Origin: a virus
Taxonomy: Duplodnaviria > Caudoviricetes
Reading direction: 5' to 3' (one strand)
IMG/VR virus record: IMGVR_UViG_3300043400_000016
Location: 1 to 55,589 of that record
Length of the DNA stretch: 55,589 nt
The position numbers were made by a program, and so were the translations under genes. Positions 14,436 through 50,123 of this stretch are shown piece by piece (within the stretch, counting starts at the first letter, position 1; each line of letters starts with the position of its first letter). A model generated the notes under the pieces. It did no database searches and was not told where the DNA came from. It saw only the letters and a list, made by a program, of their open reading frames with translations.

Positions 14436-14524
14436 GGCTATGGTTTATAGGACGCCCTAATAAGTCAAACACTGTTTGCGTGGTATTGTAGTTGGCCTAT
14501 TATTCGGGAACACTAGGAATTATC

Positions 14525-18509: not shown

Positions 18510-18589
18510 TCGGATATGCGAATGATCGCAAACACTGTTTGCGATAACGGGCCGTGCCCACAAGCCGCTATGAGCGGTAGGAGATGTAG

Positions 18590-20316: not shown

Positions 20317-20654
20317 GTAGAACGCTCCTGCTGCCGGAATCCCTTGACAATGAACCGGTGTTTGTTGTTACGTTTGACCGGTCTATGGATGAGTACTCTC
20401 TTGGTTTACGTAACGGTGCGACTTATCTACTCGGTAGCCATGATGACGCAGTTATGTACTTCACGAAGAAGCTAGCCAATTACAAGCTTCCACCATTCTG
20501 GGTAGACGATCTTGTTAACCGTGCCAACGCTTTCATTGCCGTACAAGCTGACCCAGAGTTCTTTTCTATAATCCAGTGCGATTTGCCGTCGTCAGTCACG
20601 GAATATGAAATTCTATTTCAGCGTACCAGTAAACTAACCGCAAACACTGTTTGA
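20313..20654 (+). CDS. hypothetical protein
   Basis: 113-aa ORF, GTGA overlap. Confidence 0.6.
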   Translation: MSRTLLLPESLDNEPVFVVTFDRSMDEYSLGLRNGATYLLGSHDDAVMYFTKKLANYKLPPFWVDDLVNRANAFIAVQADPEFFSIIQCDLPSSVTEYEILFQRTSKLTANTV

Positions 20655-22200: not shown

Positions 22201-23706
22201 ATGGATAAAGAAATTCTAGCAGAAGCTAAGCAAGAGTACCAGGGCAGTATCACCCGTGGTATGCAGCTTTGCCAAACCAAGATGGATGAGAGCCTTGGCG
22301 ATGACGCTGTGCTCAAGGCCAAAGGCTTTGCCCAGTTCTTCTCGGGCAAGCACTCGCTTGAAGAGGGCGTAGACTTTAAGAATTGGAAGCCAGCAAATCA
22401 GAAGAAGGCGGCTATCAGCGCCATCATCATGGAGAACACCCAAGAGTGGCTGCGCTCAATGGATGAAACTACCCGCGCACTCAATGTTGGCGGTTTCGTA
22501 GATTATCTCGTCCCGATGATTCGTGCTGCGTTCACTAATAATCCCATTATGGATCTTGTCTCGGTTCAGCCGATGACCCGCTCTTTGGGCCGAATTTTCT
22601 TCCTAAACTACGTCGTTGGGCAGACCAAGGGCAACCGTAACAAAGGCGACCGTGTGTTTGATGCGGTTCGTGGATACACTGGCGGTTCGACGTACACTGG
22701 CGAACAGATCACTGGCGAAAATGAGGCTGCAACTGTTAGCAGCACTACGTACACGGGACAGCTTAGCTATCTCCCTGCCCGTCGCGGTACGGTTACTATT
22801 TCCATTGATAATGGCACCAATCTAGTTGCTAGTGATAGTGGTAATGGCACGTTTACCAAGGTGTCCGGTACCAATACGATTTCTAGCAGCAGCATTGACT
22901 ACAACACCGGTACATACACCATTACCGTAGGAACTACTCTAGCCGCCGGCCTAGCTGTTACTGCTAACTATTCCTACGACAGCGAAGTCAGCACCAATAT
23001 CCCGCAGATTGATTTCCAGATCACTTCGACCGCCGTGCAGGCTATTCGCCGCGCTCTGCGCGTTCGCTACAGCACTGACGGCGCGTTTGACTACAAGCAG
23101 GAATTTGGCGAAGATGCTGACACCACTCTGACTCAGGGAGTTGCAGACCTTATCCGCGCTGAAGTTGCTCGTGAAGTTGTCGGTGATCTGTGGAGCGTGG
23201 CTGGTGCCCCGGTCACTACATTCTCGCTCGGTGTTCCAAGTGGTGTCAGTAAGGCTGAACACTTTGCGGATATTAAGCATGAGCTGTCGATTGCCGACAA
23301 TGCAATCTATGAGGCTACTCAGCGTGCCCACGGTAGCTGGATGATTTGCGACATTGCTGCCTCGTCAGTTATCCGCACTATCCCGGCCCCTGTGTTTGTC
23401 GAAGCTCCTATTGATAACCGTACTCAAGGTGTTCAGTACATCGGTAAGCTAAATGGGCTTGATGTTTATGTTGATCCAAAACTAACTGAGGGTGATGCAG
23501 CTGCTTCGACATACGGTAACATTCTCCTAGGTCACAAGGGCACTGAGTTCTGGGATGCCGGCTACGTCTATGCGCCGTACCAGCCGCTCATTTCGACGGT
23601 TGCTGTGACTCTGGATGACTTCGTTACCCGTAAGGGTCTTGCGACCAGATACGCGAAAAAGATAATTTCACCATCGATGTTTAAGAAAATCGCTCTTGGT
23701 GCGTAA
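22201..23706 (+). CDS. major capsid protein, T4 gp23-like
   Basis: AIIMEN, DLVSVQPMT...GRIFFL, AGYVYAPYQPL, F..RKGLATRYA. Confidence 0.95.
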   Translation: MDKEILAEAKQEYQGSITRGMQLCQTKMDESLGDDAVLKAKGFAQFFSGKHSLEEGVDFKNWKPANQKKAAISAIIMENTQEWLRSMDETTRALNVGGFVDYLVPMIRAAFTNNPIMDLVSVQPMTRSLGRIFFLNYVVGQTKGNRNKGDRVFDAVRGYTGGSTYTGEQITGENEAATVSSTTYTGQLSYLPARRGTVTISIDNGTNLVASDSGNGTFTKVSGTNTISSSSIDYNTGTYTITVGTTLAAGLAVTANYSYDSEVSTNIPQIDFQITSTAVQAIRRALRVRYSTDGAFDYKQEFGEDADTTLTQGVADLIRAEVAREVVGDLWSVAGAPVTTFSLGVPSGVSKAEHFADIKHELSIADNAIYEATQRAHGSWMICDIAASSVIRTIPAPVFVEAPIDNRTQGVQYIGKLNGLDVYVDPKLTEGDAAASTYGNILLGHKGTEFWDAGYVYAPYQPLISTVAVTLDDFVTRKGLATRYAKKIISPSMFKKIALGA

Positions 23707-23730: not shown

Positions 23731-23768
23731 AAGAGTCCAAGGTGTAACAGCCTTGGACTTTTTGTTTG
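23731..23768 (+). terminator. intrinsic terminator after MCP, possibly bidirectional
   Basis: AGTCCAAGG-TGTAACAG-CCTTGGACT followed by TTTTGTTT; A-rich flank on the other side. Confidence 0.8.
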
Positions 23769-23930
23769 GTAATTTGTGTAAGCAAACTCGCAAAATACTT
23801 ATTACATAGAAACTAACGTCGAACTTAGGCTTAGTTGGTATTGGGATTGCCCTGCGTGCGCCCACAGGAATATCGCAGGAGGCGATCACCTGGTTCCGGA
23901 GGATGAGTAGCTCTGCAAACAGTGTTTGAA

Positions 23931-24022: not shown

Positions 24023-24109
24023 TGGCGGAATGCGGAGTGATTGAAACCCTGGCCTAAGCCTCACCGCTTTTCAAGAGCGGGGCCACCTCCGGTGGTGACT
24101 ACACATTCC
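24023..24109 (-). tRNA. tRNA-Ser(TGA)
   Basis: CCGCT-CT TGA AA-AGCGG, long variable arm, GCCA end. Confidence 0.85.
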
Positions 24110-24119
24110 ATAAAATAAA

Positions 24120-24203
24120 TGCCCCTGGTCAGACTCGAACTGACACGATCTTTCGACCGGCGAGTTTTAAGCTCGCTGCGTGCTGCCTTTTCGCCACAGG
24201 GGC
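24120..24203 (-). tRNA. tRNA-Leu(TAA), no encoded CCA
   Basis: GCGAG-CT TAA AA-CTCGC, long variable arm, GTTCGAGTC T-loop. Confidence 0.9.
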
Positions 24204-24211
24204 ATTGGGCT

Positions 24212-24288
24212 TGGTACCCGAGGCGGGAATCGAACCCGCAAAATCCGATTTTTGAAATCGGCACATATACCAGTTCTGTTACTCGGGC
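24212..24288 (-). tRNA. tRNA-Leu(CAA), short variable loop
   Basis: CCGAT-TT CAA AA-ATCGG, GTTCGATTC, ACCA end; 77 nt. Confidence 0.85.
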
Positions 24289-24291
24289 AAA

Positions 24292-24373
24292 TGGTACCGC
24301 TGGCAAGACTCTAACTTGCACTGTATCTTCATGCTCAATGAAGCGACTCTACCGGGGTTTGGTCTACAGCGGC
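24292..24373 (-). tRNA. tRNA-Leu(GAG), atypical
   Basis: CTTCA-TT GAG CA-TGAAG; T-loop TTAGAGT; C at position 37; ACCA end. Confidence 0.75.
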
Positions 24374-24378
24374 ATAGA

Positions 24379-24463
24379 TGGTGAGAGATTATGGAATCGA
24401 ACCATGCGCCGTGAGGCAACGGGTTTACAGCCCGCCGAGCAACCACTGCTCTATGAATCTCCC
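24379..24463 (-). tRNA. tRNA-Tyr(GTA)
   Basis: GCGGG-CT GTA AA-CCCGT, long variable arm, ACCA end. Confidence 0.9.
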
Positions 24464-24466
24464 AAG

Positions 24467-24549
24467 TGGTACCGGTGACTGGACTCGAACCAGCACGTCT
24501 TTCGACGCTTGCTCCTAAAGCAAGTGTGTCTGCATTTCACCACACCGGC
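24467..24549 (-). tRNA. tRNA-Leu(TAG)
   Basis: CTTGC-TT TAG GA-GCAAG, long variable arm, ACCA end. Confidence 0.9.
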
Positions 24550-24593
24550 ATATCAACTTGAGCTACGCTATCGTGTTGTAAAGAACTCGGCTT

Positions 24594-24630
24594 AAACGAG
24601 AAGACCCCAGGCTTGTAGGCCCAGGGTCTT
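24594..24630 (-). terminator. attenuator terminator of the leftward tRNA operon
   Basis: Minus strand AAGACCCTGGGC-CTACAA-GCCTGGGGTCTT-CTCGTTT; 5' arm alternatively pairs with leader segment 24663-24677. Confidence 0.75.
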
Positions 24631-24657
24631 TCGATGAACATCAGATTACTCCAGATG

Positions 24658-24732
24658 CTAAGTCATCGAAAACCCTGTCGCCCGATAGAGCGAGGATAAC
24701 GACAGACTGAGCAATGAGAGCTTGCGGTTCAT
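24658..24732 (-). CDS. leader peptide of the Leu/Ser/Tyr tRNA operon (24 aa, not in ORF track)
   Basis: MNRKLSLLSLSLSSLYRATGFSMT*; 12 consecutive codons are Leu, Ser or Tyr. Confidence 0.85.
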   Translation of the reverse strand: MNRKLSLLSLSLSSLYRATGFSMT

Positions 24733-24742
24733 GGGAGAGCGA

Positions 24743-24770
24743 ACCGTAGCAGAGACTCGGCAACCGTCAA
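24743..24770 (-). promoter_or_regulatory. promoter of the leftward leader/tRNA operon
   Basis: TTGACG, 16 bp, TG-C-TACGGT (extended -10), ATG 10 nt downstream (near-leaderless). Confidence 0.65.
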
Positions 24771-24838
24771 CAACTTTTCCTAATAAGTGCTAAACACTCG
24801 TATTTTACCGTACTTTTAAGCAACTTCCAAGATTGTTG

Positions 24839-24867
24839 TTGACTCCTGTTTCCCGATCCGCTAGACA
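24839..24867 (+). promoter_or_regulatory. promoter of the rightward leader/tRNA operon
   Basis: TTGACT 24839-24844, 17 bp, TAGACA 24862-24867; ATG at 24882. Confidence 0.55.
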
Positions 24868-24881
24868 TAGTCTCATCAGCC

Positions 24882-25010
24882 ATGCGCCTTATCCCAGCCA
24901 CCACAGCGATCCACGCCGGTACGACCCAAAAAGTCGAACCCAAGGGTTTTGCATGCCAGCGCGGATTTGGGATTTGGAATCAGATGGATGAAGTGGGGCT
25001 TAACGTGTAA
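24882..25010 (+). CDS. leader peptide of the rightward tRNA operon (42 aa, not in ORF track)
   Basis: MRLIPATTAIHAGTTQKVEPKGFACQRGFGIWNQMDEVGLNV*; 18 amino-acid types, lacks only Ser and Tyr. Confidence 0.85.
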   Translation: MRLIPATTAIHAGTTQKVEPKGFACQRGFGIWNQMDEVGLNV

Positions 25011-25037
25011 GAGAGGACCATCCTCAAACCACACGTT

Positions 25038-25071
25038 AAGCCCTGGGCCAAAAGCCTAGGGCTTTTTCGTT
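25038..25071 (+). terminator. attenuator terminator of the rightward tRNA operon
   Basis: AAGCCCTGGGC-CAAAA-GCCTAGGGCTT-TTTCGTT; 25031-25043 is the exact complement of leader segment 24996-25008. Confidence 0.85.
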
Positions 25072-25210
25072 ATGGGCTGGAGATCGTGCAGACCCCAAGG
25101 GGCTAACCCGAGGCTTAACAGCCAGACCCAAGACGGTTGAAATTGCTTGTGATCTTGAAAAATCTATATTGTGGTTTGCCGGGGTTACCAAAAAGTTGGG
25201 ACCCCAACAT

Positions 25211-25285
25211 GTGTCCCTAGCTCAGCGGAAGAGCGTCTTCGTAACAGGGAGAGGGTCCGGGGTTCAATTCCCTGGGGACACACCA
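25211..25285 (+). tRNA. tRNA-Val(AAC), A34 anticodon
   Basis: GTGTCCC/GGGACAC acceptor, TCTTC-GT AAC AG-GGAGA, ACCA end. Confidence 0.8.
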
Positions 25286-25288
25286 GAA

Positions 25289-25359
25289 GTCAGAGATAGG
25301 AGTTCAAATCTCCTGTTACAAGCGAAAGCCGGTTTCTAGTTCAACGGTAGAACACTGAC
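25289..25359 (+). ncRNA. circularly permuted tRNA-like element (T arm before D arm)
   Basis: GTCAG-AGAT-AGGAG TTCAAAT CTCCT-...GC GAAA GC...-TA GTTC AACGGTA GAAC A-CTGAC. Confidence 0.6.
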
Positions 25360-25365
25360 GTTTAT

Positions 25366-25440
25366 TGCAGGATAGAGAAGCGGCATCTCAGGAGTTTCAT
25401 ACGCTCTAAGTCGTGGGTTCGAGTCCCACTCCTGCAACCA
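25366..25440 (+). tRNA. tRNA-Met(CAT), initiator-like D stem
   Basis: TGCAGGA/TCCTGCA, GGAGT-TT CAT AC-GCTCT, A11-T24 pair, ACCA end. Confidence 0.85.
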
Positions 25441-25483
25441 ATACTTTTCTTGACAGCGGGTCTCATAACCAGATACTCTGAGT

Positions 25484-25888
25484 ATGCCTATAAAAGACCC
25501 GATTGCCCGTCGTGAAAATCATAAACGGTATATGGTGCAGTATCTCTCGATTCCAAAAAATTATGCTAAGCACCTAGCCCGAGTAGCCCGGAACAAGAAG
25601 AGATACAGAAAGATTATAGATGATGCTTTAGACATCTTCAGGGCTACCGGTTGCTTAAATTGCGAAGAAAAAGAGCCGTGTGTTTTAGTAGCACACCACT
25701 TAGACCCTGATGAAAAGGAGTTTTCCATAGCTAAGATGAAGATGAGAAATATGTATAATGGTATCGCTGCTGAGCTAAAAAAGTGCGTGTGCTTATGTCA
25801 TAACTGCCACTTCAAGTACCATGCTGGAGTTATTGATATCCCGGGATTGCCGCCGGTAGTTGATAGAAAAATAGTTATGCCGAGTTAG
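25484..25888 (+). CDS. HNH endonuclease (free-standing homing type)
   Basis: CLNC...AHHLDP.EKEFSI...ELKKCVCLCHNCH. Confidence 0.85.
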   Translation: MPIKDPIARRENHKRYMVQYLSIPKNYAKHLARVARNKKRYRKIIDDALDIFRATGCLNCEEKEPCVLVAHHLDPDEKEFSIAKMKMRNMYNGIAAELKKCVCLCHNCHFKYHAGVIDIPGLPPVVDRKIVMPS

Positions 25889-25943
25889 TACAAGTGAAGA
25901 ACTTTATTGTTGATTGCTGCGGTTTTATGATTTACTTAATGCC

Positions 25944-26435
25944 ATGCAGCCGACATATCGTGAAAGACGCGCCAAAGTATTAGAATACTTAGGGACCGAG
26001 TGTGCCCATTGCGGTAGCACTTCACGCCTTGAGATAGACCACATAGACCCAAAATTAAAGTCTTATGATGTAGGCGCTAGACTAAAGTGGGCAAATTGGA
26101 ATGATCTTGTCCTTGAGCTAGCGAAGTGTCAAGCTTTATGCCATGAATGTCACAAACAAAAATCAATAAAATATCATGGGCATTCGCCGGTTAAAGGAAC
26201 TCACGGAACAACTTCGAGTTATAAATATTGCAAATGCCCTTTATGCAGAAAAGCAAAGTCAGACTACAACGCGGAGTACAAGACAAGGAAAGGATTGCGC
26301 ACCGGGACTAAGCCACGCACCGGACTTGTGCATGGGACATGTAACGCATATCAGTATTACGGCTGCCGCTGTGATTTATGTAAAACGGCAAAACATGAAG
26401 CGTATAAAGCTAAGCGAAATGGTATGTCTGTGTAG
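25944..26435 (+). CDS. HNH endonuclease with two HGT..Y..CxCxxC Zn ribbons
   Basis: CAHC...LEIDHIDP...KCQALCHECH; ORF track start 25914 (TTG), ATG 25944 more likely; stop overlaps tRNA-Phe. Confidence 0.85.
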   Translation: MQPTYRERRAKVLEYLGTECAHCGSTSRLEIDHIDPKLKSYDVGARLKWANWNDLVLELAKCQALCHECHKQKSIKYHGHSPVKGTHGTTSSYKYCKCPLCRKAKSDYNAEYKTRKGLRTGTKPRTGLVHGTCNAYQYYGCRCDLCKTAKHEAYKAKRNGMSV

Positions 26436-26502
26436 CTCAGTTGGTAGTAGCGCTGGTTTGAAAAACCAGAGGCCGTAAGTTCGACTCTTACCACAGACAC
26501 CA
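26426..26502 (+). tRNA. tRNA-Phe(GAA)
   Basis: CTGGT-TT GAA AA-ACCAG, GTTCGACTC, ACCA end. Confidence 0.9.
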
Positions 26503-26573
26503 CCCGACTACGAATGCTGTGTTGACTACATTTAAGGAAAACCGTCAATGCAATTTTTGTCGTAGTCTTTTAT

Positions 26574-26647
26574 GGGCCGTTCCTCCATTGGTAAGAGGCG
26601 TGATTTTCAATCACATAAAGAGGGTTCGATTCCCTCACGGTCTACCA
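26574..26647 (+). tRNA. tRNA-Glu(TTC)
   Basis: GTGA-TT TTC AA-TCAC, GTTCGATTC, ACCA end. Confidence 0.85.
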
Positions 26648-26678
26648 CATTACAAGGCAAACAGTGTTTGCTCAACAT

Positions 26679-26750
26679 GCTCGTATCGTCCAATGGTAGT
26701 GACGACTGATTCTCAGTCAGTAGACCGGGGTCCGATTCCCCGTACGAGTA
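26679..26750 (+). tRNA. tRNA-Glu(CTC), no encoded CCA
   Basis: ACTGA-TT CTC AG-TCAGT; T-loop TCCGATT. Confidence 0.85.
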
Positions 26751-26790
26751 AATATATTGACGGCGGTACTTGGTAGATTAGAACCAGCAT

Positions 26791-27309
26791 ATGGTTATAG
26801 ACTACTCCAGAAAATCAGCGCTCCTTCTAGCCGAATCTATTGGTTACATCATTAAAGAAGGCAACGTTTATCATCCGAAGAAAGTTACACCCGTAAAATT
26901 ATACCCTGTTGATGGGTACCCGACTTTTTCTGTCCGCTCTCGGACTCGTGGGATAAAGGGACTGGTGGCTGTACACCGCCTTTTAGCATACAGGAAGTAT
27001 GGTGACGCGGTATTTGACAATAACATAGAAGTTAGGCATCTTGACGCTGACCGATCAAATTTTAGCTACGAAAACATTGTTATAGGAACAGCTTTACAAA
27101 ACTCTTTAGATAAACCGACTTCTCTCAGACGGGCAGTAGCCATAATAGCGTCGTCGCATAAAAGAGTCCTATCCAATACCGACGTGGCTAGTATTCTTGA
27201 AATGAGAAAAAATAATAAAACTTATAAACAGATTGGCGCTATTTATGGCATATCTAAATCAACACTATCGTATCTTTTTAATAAATCTTATTACGCAAAA
27301 AATTTATAG
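26791..27309 (+). CDS. HNH homing endonuclease with C-terminal HTH
   Basis: VHRLLAY...EVRHLDADRSNFSYENI...QN; TYKQIGAIYGISKSTLSY. Confidence 0.85.
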   Translation: MVIDYSRKSALLLAESIGYIIKEGNVYHPKKVTPVKLYPVDGYPTFSVRSRTRGIKGLVAVHRLLAYRKYGDAVFDNNIEVRHLDADRSNFSYENIVIGTALQNSLDKPTSLRRAVAIIASSHKRVLSNTDVASILEMRKNNKTYKQIGAIYGISKSTLSYLFNKSYYAKNL

Positions 27310-27322
27310 TACTAATTAAGCT

Positions 27323-27396
27323 GTTCCCAGAGTCAGGCGGTACGACGACGCACTGTCACTGTGTAAGATCGGGTTCAACTCCCGATGGGGACGCCA
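27323..27396 (+). tRNA. tRNA-Asp(GTC)
   Basis: ACGCA-CT GTC AC-TGTGT, GCCA end. Confidence 0.85.
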
Positions 27397-27414
27397 CTTT
27401 TTAAGATTATTACT

Positions 27415-27489
27415 CGGCGGGTTGTCCGGTAGACACCACGCGCCTGATAAGCGCGTTGGAGGGTGGTCCGACTCCACTCCCGCCGACCA
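27415..27489 (+). tRNA. tRNA-Ile(GAT)
   Basis: CGGCGGG/CCCGCCG, CGCGC-CT GAT AA-GCGCG, T-loop TCCGACT, ACCA end. Confidence 0.8.
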
Positions 27490-27498
27490 TTTCAGTGT

Positions 27499-27572
27499 TG
27501 GCGGATCATATAATGGTATTATGGCCGATTGTTACTCGGTTCATCTCCGTTCGAGTCGGAGTCTGCCAGCCA
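27499..27572 (+). tRNA. tRNA-Asn(GTT)
   Basis: GCCGA-TT GTT AC-TCGGT, GCCA end. Confidence 0.9.
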
Positions 27573-27666
27573 GATGGCGTCTATGACGCCCGTGTGTCTC
27601 ACGTTAAACGGTCATCGGGTATGCTCCGCCCATAAGGATGACAGGGAGGAAAGACTCTCACGTTTT

Positions 27667-27739
27667 GGGCGCTACTGTCATGGTGACGGTCGAGCTTTGC
27701 AAGCTTGCTGACGGGTCCGATTCCCCCGAGTGTCCACCA
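27667..27739 (+). tRNA. tRNA-Ala(TGC)
   Basis: G3:U70 pair (GGGCGCT/AGTGTCC), CGAGC-TT TGC AA-GCTTG, ACCA end. Confidence 0.85.
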
Positions 27740-27742
27740 TTT

Positions 27743-27814
27743 ACGAGACATGGCAGCGCACAGCGAGAACTCCAAATCCTTGCATGTCCGAATCAACACC
27801 GGGGTCTCGTGCCA
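27743..27814 (+). tRNA. tRNA-Trp(CCA), atypical D and T arms
   Basis: ACGAGAC/GTCTCGT acceptor, G73, loop CT CCA AA; shrunken D arm, T-loop ATCAACA. Confidence 0.65.
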
Positions 27815-27823
27815 TGCTGTTAT

Positions 27824-27899
27824 TGAGGAATGGCCTAACTGGTAAGGCAGCGCTCTCTGAAAGCGAAGATTAGTGGTTCGAGTCCACTTTCCTCAACCA
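27824..27899 (+). tRNA. tRNA-Gln(CTG)
   Basis: T1-A72, CGCT-CT CTG AA-AGCG, ACCA end. Confidence 0.9.
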
Positions 27900-27906
27900 T
27901 TCACAT

Positions 27907-27980
27907 TGACCCATTGCATAACGGTAGTGCCTCGGATTTTGGCTCCGATGGTCGGGATTCGATTTCCTGTGGGTCAACCA
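27907..27980 (+). tRNA. tRNA-Gln(TTG)
   Basis: T1-A72, TCGGA-TT TTG GC-TCCGA, ACCA end. Confidence 0.9.
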
Positions 27981-27986
27981 TTTCAT

Positions 27987-28062
27987 CTGAACGTAGCGTA
28001 ACTTGGCAGCGTACGAGTCTTGGGCACTCGCGGTGCGGGTTCAAATCCCGCCGTTCAGACCA
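27987..28062 (+). tRNA. tRNA-Pro(TGG)
   Basis: C1-G72, CGAGT-CT TGG GC-ACTCG, ACCA end. Confidence 0.9.
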
Positions 28063-28066
28063 TTTT

Positions 28067-28151
28067 GACAGAATAGCCTAGCGGCGAAGGCACTGGATTG
28101 CAAACCCAGCGGAGCAACCCCACATGAGTTCGAGTCTCATTTCTGTCTCCA
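28067..28151 (+). tRNA. tRNA-Cys(GCA) with long variable region
   Basis: Loop TT GCA AA, U73 (TCCA end), 14-nt variable region CGGAGCAACCCCAC. Confidence 0.85.
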
Positions 28152-28156
28152 GTTAT

Positions 28157-28220
28157 GTGTCTATAACTCAATCTGGTAGAGCGGTGCCGCAGGGCACATT
28201 GCGCGGCAGCTAGAGCGTCA
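28157..28220 (+). pseudogene. degenerate tRNA, probably a tRNA-His remnant
   Basis: 5' half GTGTCTA-TA-ACTCAATCTGGTAGAGC resembles tRNA-His; anticodon arm GTGCC-GCAG-GGCAC has a 4-nt loop; no T arm or CCA. Confidence 0.5.
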
Positions 28221-28240
28221 AAGATAAGAAAAGAAAATAA

Positions 28241-28315
28241 GCGTGTATAAGTCAACAGCTAGACCGGCAGTCTTCCAAACTGCAAACCCCGGGGCAGCAC
28301 CGGGTACACGCTCCA
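28241..28315 (+). tRNA. tRNA-Gly(TCC), atypical elbow
   Basis: GCG..CGC-TCCA identity, GCAGT-CT TCC AA-ACTGC; D-loop lacks GG, T-loop GGCAGCA. Confidence 0.8.
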
Positions 28316-28319
28316 TAAT

Positions 28320-28395
28320 GCTCCTGTAGGCTAATTGGAAAAACCGGTGGACTACGAATCCGTCATTCCACGTTCAAGTCGTGGCGGGAGCGCCA
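28320..28395 (+). tRNA. tRNA-Arg(ACG)
   Basis: GTGGA-CT ACG AA-TCCGT, GCCA end. Confidence 0.9.
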
Positions 28396-28398
28396 TAT

Positions 28399-28473
28399 GC
28401 CACCAAACCTTAGATAGCGAAGGACCGCACTTGTAATGCGGAAAGCGGGGTGCATGTCCTCGTGGTGGCTCCA
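28399..28473 (+). tRNA. tRNA-Thr(TGT), atypical elbow
   Basis: CCGCA-CT TGT AA-TGCGG; T-loop TGCATGT; TCCA end. Confidence 0.8.
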
Positions 28474-28478
28474 TTGAT

Positions 28479-28566
28479 GCTGACTTACCCAAGAGACCGA
28501 AGGGAACTCATTCGTAACGAGGCGAGAGAAATCTCCGCGTTGGTTTAAATCCAACAGTCAGCTCCA
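28479..28566 (+). tRNA. tRNA-Thr(CGT) with long variable arm
   Basis: GCTGACT/AGTCAGC, loop TT CGT AA, variable hairpin GAGA-GAAA-TCTC, TCCA end. Confidence 0.75.
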
Positions 28567-28569
28567 TAC

Positions 28570-28601
28570 GCACATCAGGCTTGCGCCCGAGATGTGCTCC
28601 A
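28570..28601 (+). ncRNA. acceptor-stem minihelix ending in UCCA
   Basis: GCACATC-AGGCTTGCGCCCGA-GATGTGC-T-CCA, spaced like a tRNA gene in the array. Confidence 0.55.
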
Positions 28602-28604
28602 AAA

Positions 28605-28678
28605 GGGTTGCGAGTATTCCGGCCATACATCCCGCTTTTAACGGGAGGAACCGTGTTCGATTCACGGGCGACCCACCA
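28605..28678 (+). tRNA. tRNA-Lys(TTT)
   Basis: TCCCG-CT TTT AA-CGGGA, ACCA end. Confidence 0.9.
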
Positions 28679-28679
28679 C

Positions 28680-28754
28680 GCTCTGCAAGCATACACGGAG
28701 ATGCATTGGTTTCTTAAACCAGGGAATTCGGTTCAAGTCCGAAGCGGAGCACCA
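28680..28754 (+). tRNA. tRNA-Lys(CTT)
   Basis: TTGGT-TT CTT AA-ACCAG, ACCA end. Confidence 0.9.
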
Positions 28755-28757
28755 CAT

Positions 28758-28831
28758 GCGAGATTATTTAAGCGGTAGAAAGCCTCTTTTACACTGAAGA
28801 AGTCGGGGTTCGATTCCCTCATCTCGCACCA
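28758..28831 (+). tRNA. tRNA-Val(TAC), weak anticodon stem
   Basis: GCGAGAT/ATCTCGC, loop TT TAC AC, ACCA end; two mismatches in anticodon stem. Confidence 0.75.
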
Positions 28832-29790: not shown

Positions 29791-29877
29791 TACGCAAACA
29801 CTGTTTGCATTCTAAGCCCTCAGAACGGTTGCACGCTGTGCTAATCAGGTACATTTAATGTTACCAAGGAATATGCC

Positions 29878-42096: not shown

Positions 42097-42120
42097 CTGC
42101 AAACACTGTTTGAGTAAACT

Positions 42121-50091: not shown

Positions 50092-50123
50092 CCGCAAACA
50101 CTGTTTGCTAAGCGAGTCTGGTT

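What the first reader, a model, noticed from the sequence alone, without database searches (positions are those of the whole stretch)
24839..25071. Rightward attenuator: a near-pangram 42-codon leader peptide
Seen: MRLIPATTAIHAGTTQKVEPKGFACQRGFGIWNQMDEVGLNV* uses 18 amino-acid types, including single Cys, Trp, His, Asp and internal Met, and both codons where two isoacceptors are encoded (CAA/CAG, AAA/AAG, ACA/ACG, GTC/GTG). GGGCTTAACGTGT (24996-25008, last codons and first base of the stop) is the exact 13-bp complement of ACACGTTAAGCCC (25031-25043), which overlaps the terminator 5' arm. Inference: a stall at any of roughly the first 35 codons allows antitermination, making a many-input OR gate. 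Imperfections: there is no GAG codon for Glu(CTC), two CTT Leu codons are present, and Asp36 is so close to segment 2 that sensing may be partial.
Basis: partly seen in the sequence, partly recalled or inferred. Interest (0 to 1): 0.9.

Follow-up and report, generated by a model that had tools for sequence, protein, structure and literature searches.

The report
Codon-sampling attenuator before phage tRNA genes
A freshwater phage appears to gate each of its two back-to-back tRNA gene clusters with a short translated leader and a stop signal, and each leader is spelled in the codons read by the tRNAs behind it, which would let the phage make more tRNA when decoding slows.

Summary
The sequence facts hold. 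There is a 42-codon ORF (24882-25010), a perfect 13-bp inverted repeat (24996-25008 / 25031-25043) covering the stop codon, and a strong intrinsic terminator (25038-25064) ahead of a 20-tRNA array.

"Near-pangram" alone is not unusual: 11% of 42-residue windows of this phage's proteins reach 18 residue types. The specific match is unusual. The ORF holds a cognate codon for 19 of the 20 tRNAs downstream and for only 1 of the 6 tRNAs in the opposite array (0 of 8561 real 42-codon windows; about 5e-4 for random codons).

The strongest support lies outside the given coordinates. A mirror-image leader sits on the minus strand (24732-24658, MNRKLSLLSLSLSSLYRATGFSMT). Its codons 5-16 are only Leu/Ser/Tyr, exactly the amino acids of the leftward array, and it has the same promoter 9-mer, stop-codon repeat and hairpin layout.

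A related phage keeps the 42-codon frame, and 24882-25207 is 95.7% identical in it, against about 81% in the capsid gene.

Best reading (about 0.5): paired ribosome-mediated attenuators on phage tRNA operons, a new variant of a known mechanism.

Weak points: no Shine-Dalgarno sequence, poor -10 boxes, no codon runs in the right leader, a weak left terminator, one relative only, and no RNA data.

The parts
24835..24867 (+). Promoter-like site of the rightward leader: GTTGTTGAC 9-mer containing the -35 TTGACT (24839-24844), a 17-nt spacer, and a weak -10 candidate TAGACA (24862-24867). This implies a 5' UTR of only about 5-8 nt.
   Evidence: The exact 9-mer occurs only twice in the window, once before each leader and on the matching strand. 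The composite pattern gave 2 matches against 0.08 expected. The sigma-70 scan did not call it, because the -10 lacks the final T.
24882..25010 (+). Rightward leader ORF: 42 codons plus TAA, 18 residue types, no Ser or Tyr. It has cognate codons for 19 of the 20 rightward tRNAs.
   Evidence: The homologue P0060 keeps the 42-codon frame. No Shine-Dalgarno sequence lies upstream.
24996..25008 (+). Antiterminator 5' arm (GGGCTTAACGTGT). It spans the last codons and the first base of the stop codon.
   Evidence: (I2).
25013..25025 (+). Small inner hairpin GAGGA-CCA-TCCTC in the loop of the antiterminator.
   Evidence: Present in every predicted fold. Its role is unknown.
25031..25043 (+). Antiterminator 3' arm (ACACGTTAAGCCC). 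Its last 6 nt are the base of the terminator's 5' arm.
25038..25073 (+). Intrinsic terminator: an 11-bp stem (25038-25048 / 25054-25064), a 5-nt loop and a T-rich tail.
   Evidence: It forms fully when 24993-25023 is masked.
25074..25210 (+). Spacer between the terminator and the first tRNA. It is conserved in the relative. By eye it holds a weak promoter-like TTGCTT-16-TATATT (25143-25170).
   Evidence: It is part of the 326 nt that are 95.7% identical in run X3. No site passed the scan threshold here on the + strand.
25211..28831 (+). Rightward tRNA array of 20 tRNAs (Val, Met, Phe, Glu x2, Asp, Ile, Asn, Ala, Gln x2, Pro, Cys, Gly, Arg, Thr x2, Lys x2, Val), interrupted by three ORFs.
   Evidence: 16 by ARAGORN at its default threshold. 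3 more by Rfam; two of these were typed Thr by relaxed ARAGORN, and the third (28241-28312) was read by eye as Gly(tcc). Ala(tgc) was found only at ARAGORN's 90% threshold, but it has G3:U70 and an encoded CCA.
24743..24774 (-). Promoter-like site of the leftward leader: the same GTTGTTGAC 9-mer (-35 TTGACG 24770-24765), a 16-nt spacer, and -10 candidate TACGGT (24748-24743).
24658..24732 (-). Leftward leader ORF: 24 codons plus TAG, MNRKLSLLSLSLSSLYRATGFSMT. Codons 5-16 are only Leu, Ser or Tyr, and all 6 leftward tRNAs have a cognate codon.
   Evidence: The run of 12 is the longest Leu/Ser/Tyr run in all six frames of the window; the next longest is 8.
24628..24672 (-). Leftward antiterminator candidate: TTTTCGATGA (24672-24663) pairs with TCATCGAAAG (24637-24628), 9 Watson-Crick pairs plus 1 G-U. 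The 25-nt loop holds the stop codon TAG 24660-24658.
   Evidence: Read. A perfect 9-mer overlapping the hairpin arm was reached in 0.36% of 5000 shuffles. It is energetically weaker than the hairpin: -49.0 against -57.8 kcal/mol.
24597..24633 (-). Leftward terminator-like hairpin (core AAGACCCTGGGC / GCCTGGGGTCTT). It resembles the rightward terminator in sequence. Its tail CTCGTTTAAG is T-poor.
   Evidence: (I5). The terminator scan did not call it. Only 47 nt separate it from tRNA-Leu(tag).
24023..24549 (-). Leftward tRNA array: Leu(tag), Tyr(gta), Leu(gag), Leu(caa), Leu(taa), Ser(tga).
   Evidence: 4 by ARAGORN at its default threshold. Leu(gag) scored 38.4 bits in Rfam. Ser(tga) was found only at ARAGORN's 95% threshold and not by Rfam.

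Best explanation
The finding is the rightward half of a pair of divergent ribosome-mediated transcription attenuators that gate the phage's two tRNA operons.

Proposed mechanism, in steps:
1. Each operon starts at a promoter-like site carrying the same GTTGTTGAC element. This gives an almost leaderless transcript that opens with a short ORF.
2. In the rightward unit the last codons and the stop codon lie in the 5' arm of a 13-bp hairpin. The 3' arm of that hairpin takes 6 nt from the base of the terminator stem.
3. If the ribosome reads all 42 codons without delay, it sits on the stop codon and masks that arm. The 11-bp terminator then forms and the tRNA array is not transcribed.
4. If the ribosome is held up anywhere in roughly codons 2-33, because some tRNA is scarce or uncharged, the arm is free. 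The antiterminator forms first and RNA polymerase runs on into the 20-tRNA array.
5. The leader contains a codon for nearly every tRNA behind it. The leftward leader is a run of Leu/Ser/Tyr codons ahead of the Ser/Leu/Tyr array. Each operon would therefore be switched on by a shortage of the decoding capacity that it supplies.

Shown here: the sequence elements, their geometry, the near-equal energies of the two folds, the codon-to-tRNA match on both sides, and nucleotide conservation in one relative.

Inferred: that the promoters fire, that the ORFs are translated, that the terminator works, and that a single slow codon is enough.
For: 1. Layout and geometry. The ORF, the stop codon in the hairpin arm, and the terminator overlapped by 6 nt are all present. 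A 13-bp repeat so placed arose in 0 of 5000 shuffles.
2. Bistability. Energies are -70.8 kcal/mol (antiterminator forced), -70.0 (terminator forced) and -71.1 (minimum free energy). Without a ribosome, the six overlapped terminator pairs have probabilities of 0.07-0.63. With 24993-25023 masked the full terminator forms.
3. Codon match, right side. 19 of 20 rightward tRNAs have a cognate codon, against 1 of 6 leftward tRNAs. Both codons are present for 4 of the 5 isoacceptor pairs. This combination was found in 0 of 8561 real 42-codon windows and at 5e-4 under phage codon usage. Of the 16 ORFs of 20 codons or more in 24550-25210, only this one combines 19/20 with 1/6.
4. Mirror partner. The left leader has 12 consecutive Leu/Ser/Tyr codons, which use TTA, TTG, CTC and CTG, so all four Leu tRNAs are sampled. 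The per-position probability is about 1e-8, and it is the longest such run in the window. The same 9-mer lies upstream and occurs only at these two places. The stop codon lies 3 nt after a repeat arm, the hairpin is similar, and only 47 nt remain before the first tRNA, so the left array must be read through that hairpin.
5. Conservation. In run X3, from another study, one contig lies on 24882-25207 with 14 differences in 326 nt (95.7% identity). The capsid-gene piece has 97 in 525 (81.5%), and 31 of its 39 listed differences fall at third codon positions. P0060 keeps a 42-residue frame, and residues 27-42, which include the hairpin arm, are identical.
6. No known RNA family matches the region, and the peptide belongs to no protein family. 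In 1.84 billion representative proteins, P0060 was the only hit.
Against: - There is no Shine-Dalgarno sequence before either ATG, although about half of the phage's long ORFs show AGGA or GGAG.
- Both -10 candidates are poor, and the promoter scan called neither site.
- The right leader has no run of regulatory codons. By recalled knowledge, single codons give weak attenuation.
- The only Asp codon (codon 36) lies too close to the arm to be sensed. GAG, the codon for Glu(ctc), is missing. CTT (twice), CAC and TGG have no tRNA in the right array.
- The hairpin and terminator are not strictly exclusive. In the minimum-free-energy fold, 8 bp of the hairpin coexist with a 10-bp terminator.
- The 146-nt spacer after the terminator could hold a second promoter (TTGCTT-16-TATATT, by eye), which would bypass the gate.
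- The left antiterminator is 8.8 kcal/mol weaker than its hairpin, and the left tail is T-poor.
- Two tRNAs that matter for the match, Ser(tga) and Ala(tgc), pass only relaxed ARAGORN thresholds.
- The high identity in X3 could come from recent recombination. The adjoining tRNA-Phe piece has 0 differences in 151 nt.
- The positions of the 14 differences were not shown, so covariation could not be tested.
- The statistics are post hoc.
Confidence: 0.5

Rival explanations
1. The two leaders are independent short transcription units (small RNAs or mRNAs for small peptides), each ended by its own terminator. The tRNA arrays are made from other promoters, and the codon match is a coincidence.
For: The rightward terminator is strong. 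A 146-nt conserved spacer follows it, with a by-eye promoter-like TTGCTT-16-TATATT. The fold z-scores of -3.5 to -3.9 fit a structured RNA. Conservation at the nucleotide level rather than the peptide level suits an RNA gene.
Against: On the left only 47 nt separate the hairpin from the first tRNA, and no promoter-like site was seen there. Coincidence would have to explain both the run of 12 Leu/Ser/Tyr codons and the 19/20 against 1/6 coverage. It would also have to explain a stop codon sitting in or next to a hairpin arm on both sides. No Rfam family matches.
Confidence: 0.2
2. The element is an untranslated structured leader: a leaky terminator or insulator, or a processing site for the tRNA precursor. 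The ORFs are incidental and read-through is set by RNA folding or by a protein, not by ribosome position.
For: There is no Shine-Dalgarno sequence. The two folds are isoenergetic, so partial read-through needs no ribosome. A third copy of GGCTTAAC at 25112-25119 can also pair with 25035-25047 (I4), which hints at further RNA-only alternatives.
Against: It does not explain why the codon content of each ORF matches the tRNAs downstream. It also does not explain why the relative keeps the 42-codon frame despite at least 4 base changes.
Confidence: 0.17
3. ORF 24882-25010 encodes a functional 42-residue protein with its own promoter and terminator.
For: A homologue of the same length and 90% identity exists. 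Its four replacements (A6T, I10M, H11N, Q26H) are mild. A gene caller called it in the relative's contigs.
Against: A search of 1,835,955,588 representative proteins found no other relative. The predicted structure has mean pLDDT 43.9 and no secondary structure, although the alignment had only two rows. At least 4 of at most 14 differences in 326 nt are replacements, while the region is far more conserved than the capsid gene's silent sites, which is not the pattern of a protein under purifying selection. It also does not explain the stop codon in the hairpin arm or the mirror partner.
Confidence: 0.08

Closest known systems
Leader-peptide (ribosome-mediated) transcription attenuators of amino-acid operons: trpL, hisL, leuL, pheL (recalled knowledge; general description in the abstract start of PMC1183508, seen in the listing)
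   Same: A short ORF lies between promoter and genes. An intrinsic terminator follows it, and an alternative hairpin takes part of the terminator stem. Ribosome position on the ORF would choose between the two folds, and the codons in the ORF relate to what the operon supplies.
   Different: The controlled genes are tRNAs, not biosynthetic enzymes. The right leader has no run of regulatory codons and instead carries about one codon per tRNA. No upstream 1:2 (pause or anti-antiterminator) hairpin is supported. There is no Shine-Dalgarno sequence and the 5' UTR is probably very short. The element is in a phage.
Multivalent attenuators: ilvGMEDA leader (Leu, Val, Ile) and thr leader (Thr, Ile) (recalled knowledge)
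   Same: One leader reports on more than one amino acid.
   Different: Those leaders sense two or three amino acids, each with several codons. Here 15-18 residue types would be sensed, mostly with 1-3 codons each, and the set is split between two divergent leaders according to where the tRNA genes lie.
pheM leader of pheST (attenuation of an aminoacyl-tRNA synthetase operon; recalled knowledge)
   Same: A leader-peptide attenuator controls a component of the decoding machinery rather than a biosynthetic pathway.
   Different: The target there is a synthetase and the leader holds a single amino acid's codon run. Here the targets are the tRNAs themselves.
T-box riboswitches (recalled knowledge)
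   Same: They use a terminator/antiterminator choice that reports on tRNA status.
   Different: T-boxes bind uncharged tRNA directly and need no translation. No T-box or other Rfam family matches here, even at E <= 10.

Membership tests
Leader-peptide transcription attenuator | Short ORF between the promoter and the regulated genes | tested here: met
   42-codon ORF at 24882-25010, 201 nt before tRNA-Val. The left partner has 24 codons.
Leader-peptide transcription attenuator | Signals for efficient translation start on the leader ORF | tested here: not met
   No AGGA or GGAG lies within 20 nt upstream of either ATG. A near-leaderless start is possible but is only inferred from the position of the -35 site.
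Leader-peptide transcription attenuator | Regulatory codons cognate to what the operon supplies | tested here: met
   Right: codons for 19 of 20 downstream tRNAs and 1 of 6 opposite ones. Left: 12 consecutive Leu/Ser/Tyr codons before the Ser/Leu/Tyr tRNAs.
Leader-peptide transcription attenuator | Regulatory codons clustered in runs | tested here: not met
   The right leader has at most two like codons side by side (Thr-Thr, twice). The left leader does have a run.
Leader-peptide transcription attenuator | Intrinsic terminator between the ORF and the genes | tested here: met
   11-bp stem, 7 G-C pairs, T-rich tail at 25038-25073. The left hairpin has a T-poor tail and was not called.
Leader-peptide transcription attenuator | Antiterminator that competes with the terminator stem | tested here: met
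   The 13-bp repeat overlaps the terminator arm by 6 nt and the two folds lie within 1 kcal/mol. Exclusion is only partial, since 8 bp and 10 bp can coexist.
Leader-peptide transcription attenuator | A ribosome at the stop codon blocks the antiterminator | tested here: met
   The stop codon 25008-25010 is the 3' end of the 5' arm. Masking 24993-25023 gives the full terminator. This is geometry only, not an experiment.
Leader-peptide transcription attenuator | Upstream 1:2 pause or anti-antiterminator hairpin | tested here: inconclusive
   The minimum-free-energy fold pairs 24908-24912 with 24963-24967. If each replacement in P0060 is a single-base change (my inference), two of those pairs would break with no compensation at Gly28. 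No supported segment 1 was found.
Leader-peptide transcription attenuator | Read-through responds to the supply of charged tRNA | not testable with these tools
   No listed holder run is on record as RNA.
T-box riboswitch | Match to the T-box covariance model (specifier loop, T-box sequence) | tested here: not met
   No Rfam match in 24550-25210 above 16.3 bits at E <= 10.

The most novel reading that the evidence does not exclude
The phage runs a two-channel, closed-loop sensor of decoding capacity. It has sorted its tRNA genes into two divergent operons. Each operon is gated by a leader ORF that samples the codons read by the tRNAs in that operon, with Leu/Ser/Tyr on one side and nearly everything else on the other. 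A shortfall of any one tRNA would stall the ribosome in the matching leader and switch on exactly the operon that can make good the loss. Such a shortfall could come from codon-usage mismatch, from decay of host tRNA during infection, or from host anticodon nucleases. This would be the first leader-peptide attenuator known to control tRNA genes, and the first with a many-input leader.
Probability: 0.4. Interest if true: 0.9.

Novelty: new variant of a known kind. Interest (0 to 1): 0.8.

Why it matters
Phage tRNA genes are now seen as a way to keep translation going when host tRNAs are cut or depleted. The listings and abstract starts of PMC10264068 and PMC11555353 say this; I read nothing further in them. 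How phages control these genes is largely unknown.

If this reading is right, the phage measures decoding directly, with a ribosome on a test message, and feeds the result back to tRNA synthesis. That would extend leader-peptide attenuation from amino-acid supply to tRNA supply. It would explain why the tRNA genes are split into two divergent arrays. It would also give a compact natural part that reports slow decoding of almost any codon.

Seven full-text searches found no report of a leader-peptide attenuator ahead of a tRNA operon or a phage tRNA array. The library lacks most subscription journals, so an older report cannot be excluded.

Tried and rejected
Searches for relatives' DNA:
- The capsid protein alone found nothing in viral contigs.
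- An 11-sequence capsid alignment in viral contigs returned 80 loci, all at 31% identity or less.
- The 3 closest capsid sequences aligned found none.
- In metagenome contigs, 5 loci came back at 59% identity or less, and none carries a tRNA.
- In genome contigs, none.
- An exact 19-mer of the switch and a degenerate back-translation of residues 31-39 both found 0 in viral contigs.
- blastn of 24550-25210 against 50,697 phage records gave no match.
- The left array gave only single tRNA-Leu hits in 13 records. Two of these were inspected. Their tRNAs sit inside long same-strand operons and are not comparable.
- The closest cultured capsid relative, Listeria phage LIS04 at 33%, has no tRNA array after its capsid gene.
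- Capsid relatives at 85%, 77% and 59% identity exist (P0002, P0003, P0006), but their contigs could not be fetched.

Other negative or closed steps:
- The 40-codon ORF overlapping the left leader has no homologue on record.
- No RNA holder was listed among the sequencing runs. Run X4, labelled metatranscriptomic but probably DNA, does not cover the leader.
- The AlphaFold2 model of the peptide has pLDDT 43.9.
- I recalled that E. coli tRNA-Phe genes carry an attenuator-like leader. I checked pheV in K-12 and found a promoter directly upstream and no Phe-rich ORF, so I dropped that claim.
- The 80 distant loci hold only one other small tRNA array, in L006, so generality could not be tested.
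- Supplementary files were not consulted.

Full report
**Setting.** The window is a 55,589-base virus contig from a freshwater metagenome, estimated to be 38% complete. It carries a T4-type major capsid gene at 22201-23706, whose best cultured match is 33% identical. Just after that gene lie two divergent tRNA arrays separated by 661 bases (24550-25210). The finding lies in the right half of this gap.

**Checking the observation.**
So are the 18 residue types and the codon details.
- The 13-nt inverted repeat 24996-25008 / 25031-25043 is perfect. Its 5' arm ends on the first base of the stop codon.
- The terminator 25038-25064 has 11 pairs, 7 of them G-C, and a T-rich tail.
- With the upstream 152 nt shuffled, 0 of 5000 shuffles gave a repeat of 13 nt overlapping the terminator arm; the longest was 11.
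- The "near-pangram" count is ordinary. At least 18 types occur in 1185 of 10811 (11%) 42-residue windows of this phage's long ORFs and in 30% of random-DNA ORFs.

**The tRNA content.**
- ARAGORN at its default threshold finds 4 leftward and 16 rightward tRNAs.
- Rfam adds three on the right. Two of these were typed Thr(tgt) and Thr(cgt) by relaxed ARAGORN. I read the third, 28241-28312, by eye as Gly(tcc).
- Rfam also adds Leu(gag) on the left, at 38.4 bits.
- Relaxed ARAGORN adds Ser(tga) on the left, at the 95% threshold, with discriminator G plus an encoded CCA. It also adds Ala(tgc) on the right, at the 90% threshold, with G3:U70 and an encoded CCA. These two are probable, not certain.
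- The left array is therefore Ser, Leu x4 and Tyr. The right array holds 20 tRNAs for 15 amino acids: V, M, F, E, D, I, N, A, Q, P, C, G, R, T, K.

**Match of the right leader to its array.**
- The leader contains all 15 of those residue types and lacks Ser and Tyr. This holds for 15 of 8561 real windows, and at 3.3e-4 to 4.9e-4 under random models.
- At codon level, using standard wobble rules, 19 of the 20 rightward tRNAs have a cognate codon in the leader; only Glu(ctc), which reads GAG, is missed. Only 1 of the 6 leftward tRNAs has one (Leu(gag), through CTT).
- Among real 42-codon windows, 38 of 8561 reach 19 of 20. None combines that with at most 1 of 6. Random draws from phage codon usage give 5e-4.
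- Of the 16 ORFs of 20 codons or more in the gap, only this one shows the combination.
- These tests were framed after the ORF was seen.

**The mirror partner.** On the minus strand, ATG 24732 opens a 24-codon ORF, MNRKLSLLSLSLSSLYRATGFSMT.
- Codons 5-16 are twelve consecutive Leu/Ser/Tyr codons. These are the amino acids of the leftward array.
- The Leu codons are CTC, TTG, CTC, CTG, TTA and CTC, so all four Leu tRNAs are sampled. All 6 leftward tRNAs have a cognate codon.
- This is the longest Leu/Ser/Tyr run in all six frames of the window (the next is 8), with a per-position chance of about 1e-8.
- The layout repeats that of the right side. The stop codon TAG 24660-24658 lies 3 nt after TTTTCGATGA (24672-24663). 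That segment pairs with TCATCGAAAG (24637-24628), whose last 6 nt belong to a long hairpin (24633-24597) similar in sequence to the rightward terminator. A 9-nt perfect match so placed was reached in 0.36% of shuffles.
- Only 47 nt separate this hairpin from tRNA-Leu(tag), so the left array must be transcribed through it.
- Each leader is preceded by the 9-mer GTTGTTGAC. It occurs exactly twice in the window, at these two places and on the matching strands. The -35 position implies a 5' UTR of only a few bases on each side.

**Energetics.** For the right transcript up to the end of the terminator stem:
- The energies are -70.8 kcal/mol with the full antiterminator forced, -70.0 with the full terminator forced, and -71.1 for the minimum free energy.
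- In the minimum-free-energy fold, an 8-bp remnant of the hairpin coexists with a 10-bp terminator, so exclusion is partial.
- Masking 24993-25023, a ribosome on the stop codon, gives the full 11-bp terminator.
- On the left, the hairpin is favoured by 8.8 kcal/mol over the antiterminator, and its tail is T-poor. The left switch is the weaker of the two in structure, although its codon run is the stronger evidence.

**Relatives.**
- Run X3, from a different study, holds a related phage. One contig lies on 24882-25207 with 14 differences in 326 nt (95.7% identity). It then skips 25208-26422, with 156 other letters in between, and resumes on tRNA-Phe with 0 differences in 151 nt.
- The piece on 24658-24889 has 22 differences and 4 gaps in 232 nt. 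The capsid-gene piece has 97 differences in 525 nt. Of the 39 capsid differences listed, 31 are at third codon positions.
- The leader, switch and spacer are therefore held much more tightly than silent sites of an essential gene. Recent recombination could give the same picture.
- The positions of the 14 differences were not shown, so covariation could not be tested.
- A protein search found one homologue, P0060: 42 residues, 38 of 42 identical (A6T, I10M, H11N, Q26H), with residues 27-42 unchanged. It has the same 18 types, with His lost at position 11 and regained at 26. Four random replacements keep the set about 40% of the time, so this decides nothing.
- I cannot show that P0060 comes from the X3 contig.
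- No further homologue exists among 1,835,955,588 representative proteins. The predicted structure is unfolded, with pLDDT 43.9 from a two-row alignment.

**Against the attenuator reading.**
- Neither ATG has a Shine-Dalgarno sequence, while about half of the phage's long ORFs do.
- Both -10 candidates are poor and the scan called neither promoter.
- The right leader has no codon runs.
- Asp36 lies too close to the arm to be sensed, GAG is missing, and CTT, CAC and TGG have no tRNA in the right array.
- The 146-nt spacer could hold a bypass promoter (TTGCTT-16-TATATT at 25143-25170, by eye).
- There are no RNA data.

**What it is like, and what it is a member of.** The element works like the leader-peptide attenuators of amino-acid operons. 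It meets five defining features: a short ORF, cognate codons, a terminator, a competing antiterminator, and a stop codon placed to block it. It fails two (translation start signals, codon runs). The 1:2 hairpin is inconclusive, and regulation could not be tested.

It is not a T-box or any other Rfam family. The multivalent ilv and thr leaders and the pheM-pheST leader are the nearest relatives in logic; this comparison is from recalled knowledge. Seven literature searches found no attenuator described ahead of tRNA genes. My recollection of one at E. coli pheV was checked and not borne out.

**Verdict.** Its headline statistic is ordinary. The specific codon-to-tRNA match, the geometry, the conservation and above all the mirror-image partner make a pair of ribosome-mediated attenuators on phage tRNA operons the best reading, at about 0.5. 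It would be a new variant of a known mechanism. The many-input "OR gate" behaviour remains an inference.

Noticed in passing
window, about 24 sites, e.g. 14466-14478, 18529-18541, 20641-20653, 23916-23928, 26658-26670, 29795-29807, 42100-42112, 50095-50107: The palindrome CAAACA(C/G)TGTTTG recurs across the contig, mostly between genes and twice inside the tRNA region. It gave 46 strand-matches with up to 2 mismatches, against 1.76 expected. It is probably an operator or a phage-specific promoter or terminator element. No copy lies in 24550-25210.
   Followed up: partly
window 25484-25888, 25914-26435, 26791-27309: Three ORFs interrupt the rightward tRNA array. By eye their Cys/His motifs look like homing (HNH-type) endonucleases; no family search was run. 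The X3 relative lacks 25208-26422 (tRNA-Val, tRNA-Met and the first two ORFs) and has 156 other letters there.
   Followed up: no
window 28067-28151, 28479-28566, 24023-24109, 27667-27739: Several tRNAs are atypical. Cys is 85 nt long, and Thr(cgt) is 88 nt with a long variable arm. Ser(tga) and Ala(tgc) pass only relaxed ARAGORN thresholds and are not found by Rfam.
   Followed up: partly
window 25286-25365: An 80-nt gap between tRNA-Val and tRNA-Met contains a T-arm-like GGAGTTCAAATCTCC. No tRNA was called there, even at relaxed thresholds. It may be a tRNA remnant.
   Followed up: partly
window 25107-25119: A third copy of GGCTTAAC lies downstream of the terminator. It is 85% complementary over 13 nt to 25035-25047 (I4), so read-through transcripts have a further possible pairing partner for the terminator arm.
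   Followed up: no
window 24830-24802 (minus strand): This is the best sigma-70-like promoter match in the gap: TTGGAA-17-TAAAAT, 9 of 12. It lies upstream of the leftward GTTGTTGAC site, so the left leader may have two promoters.
   Followed up: no
window 23733-23768: By eye, a hairpin GTCCAAGG-N8-CCTTGGAC followed by TTTTTGTTT lies just after the capsid gene. It is a likely capsid-gene terminator, though the scan did not list it.
   Followed up: no
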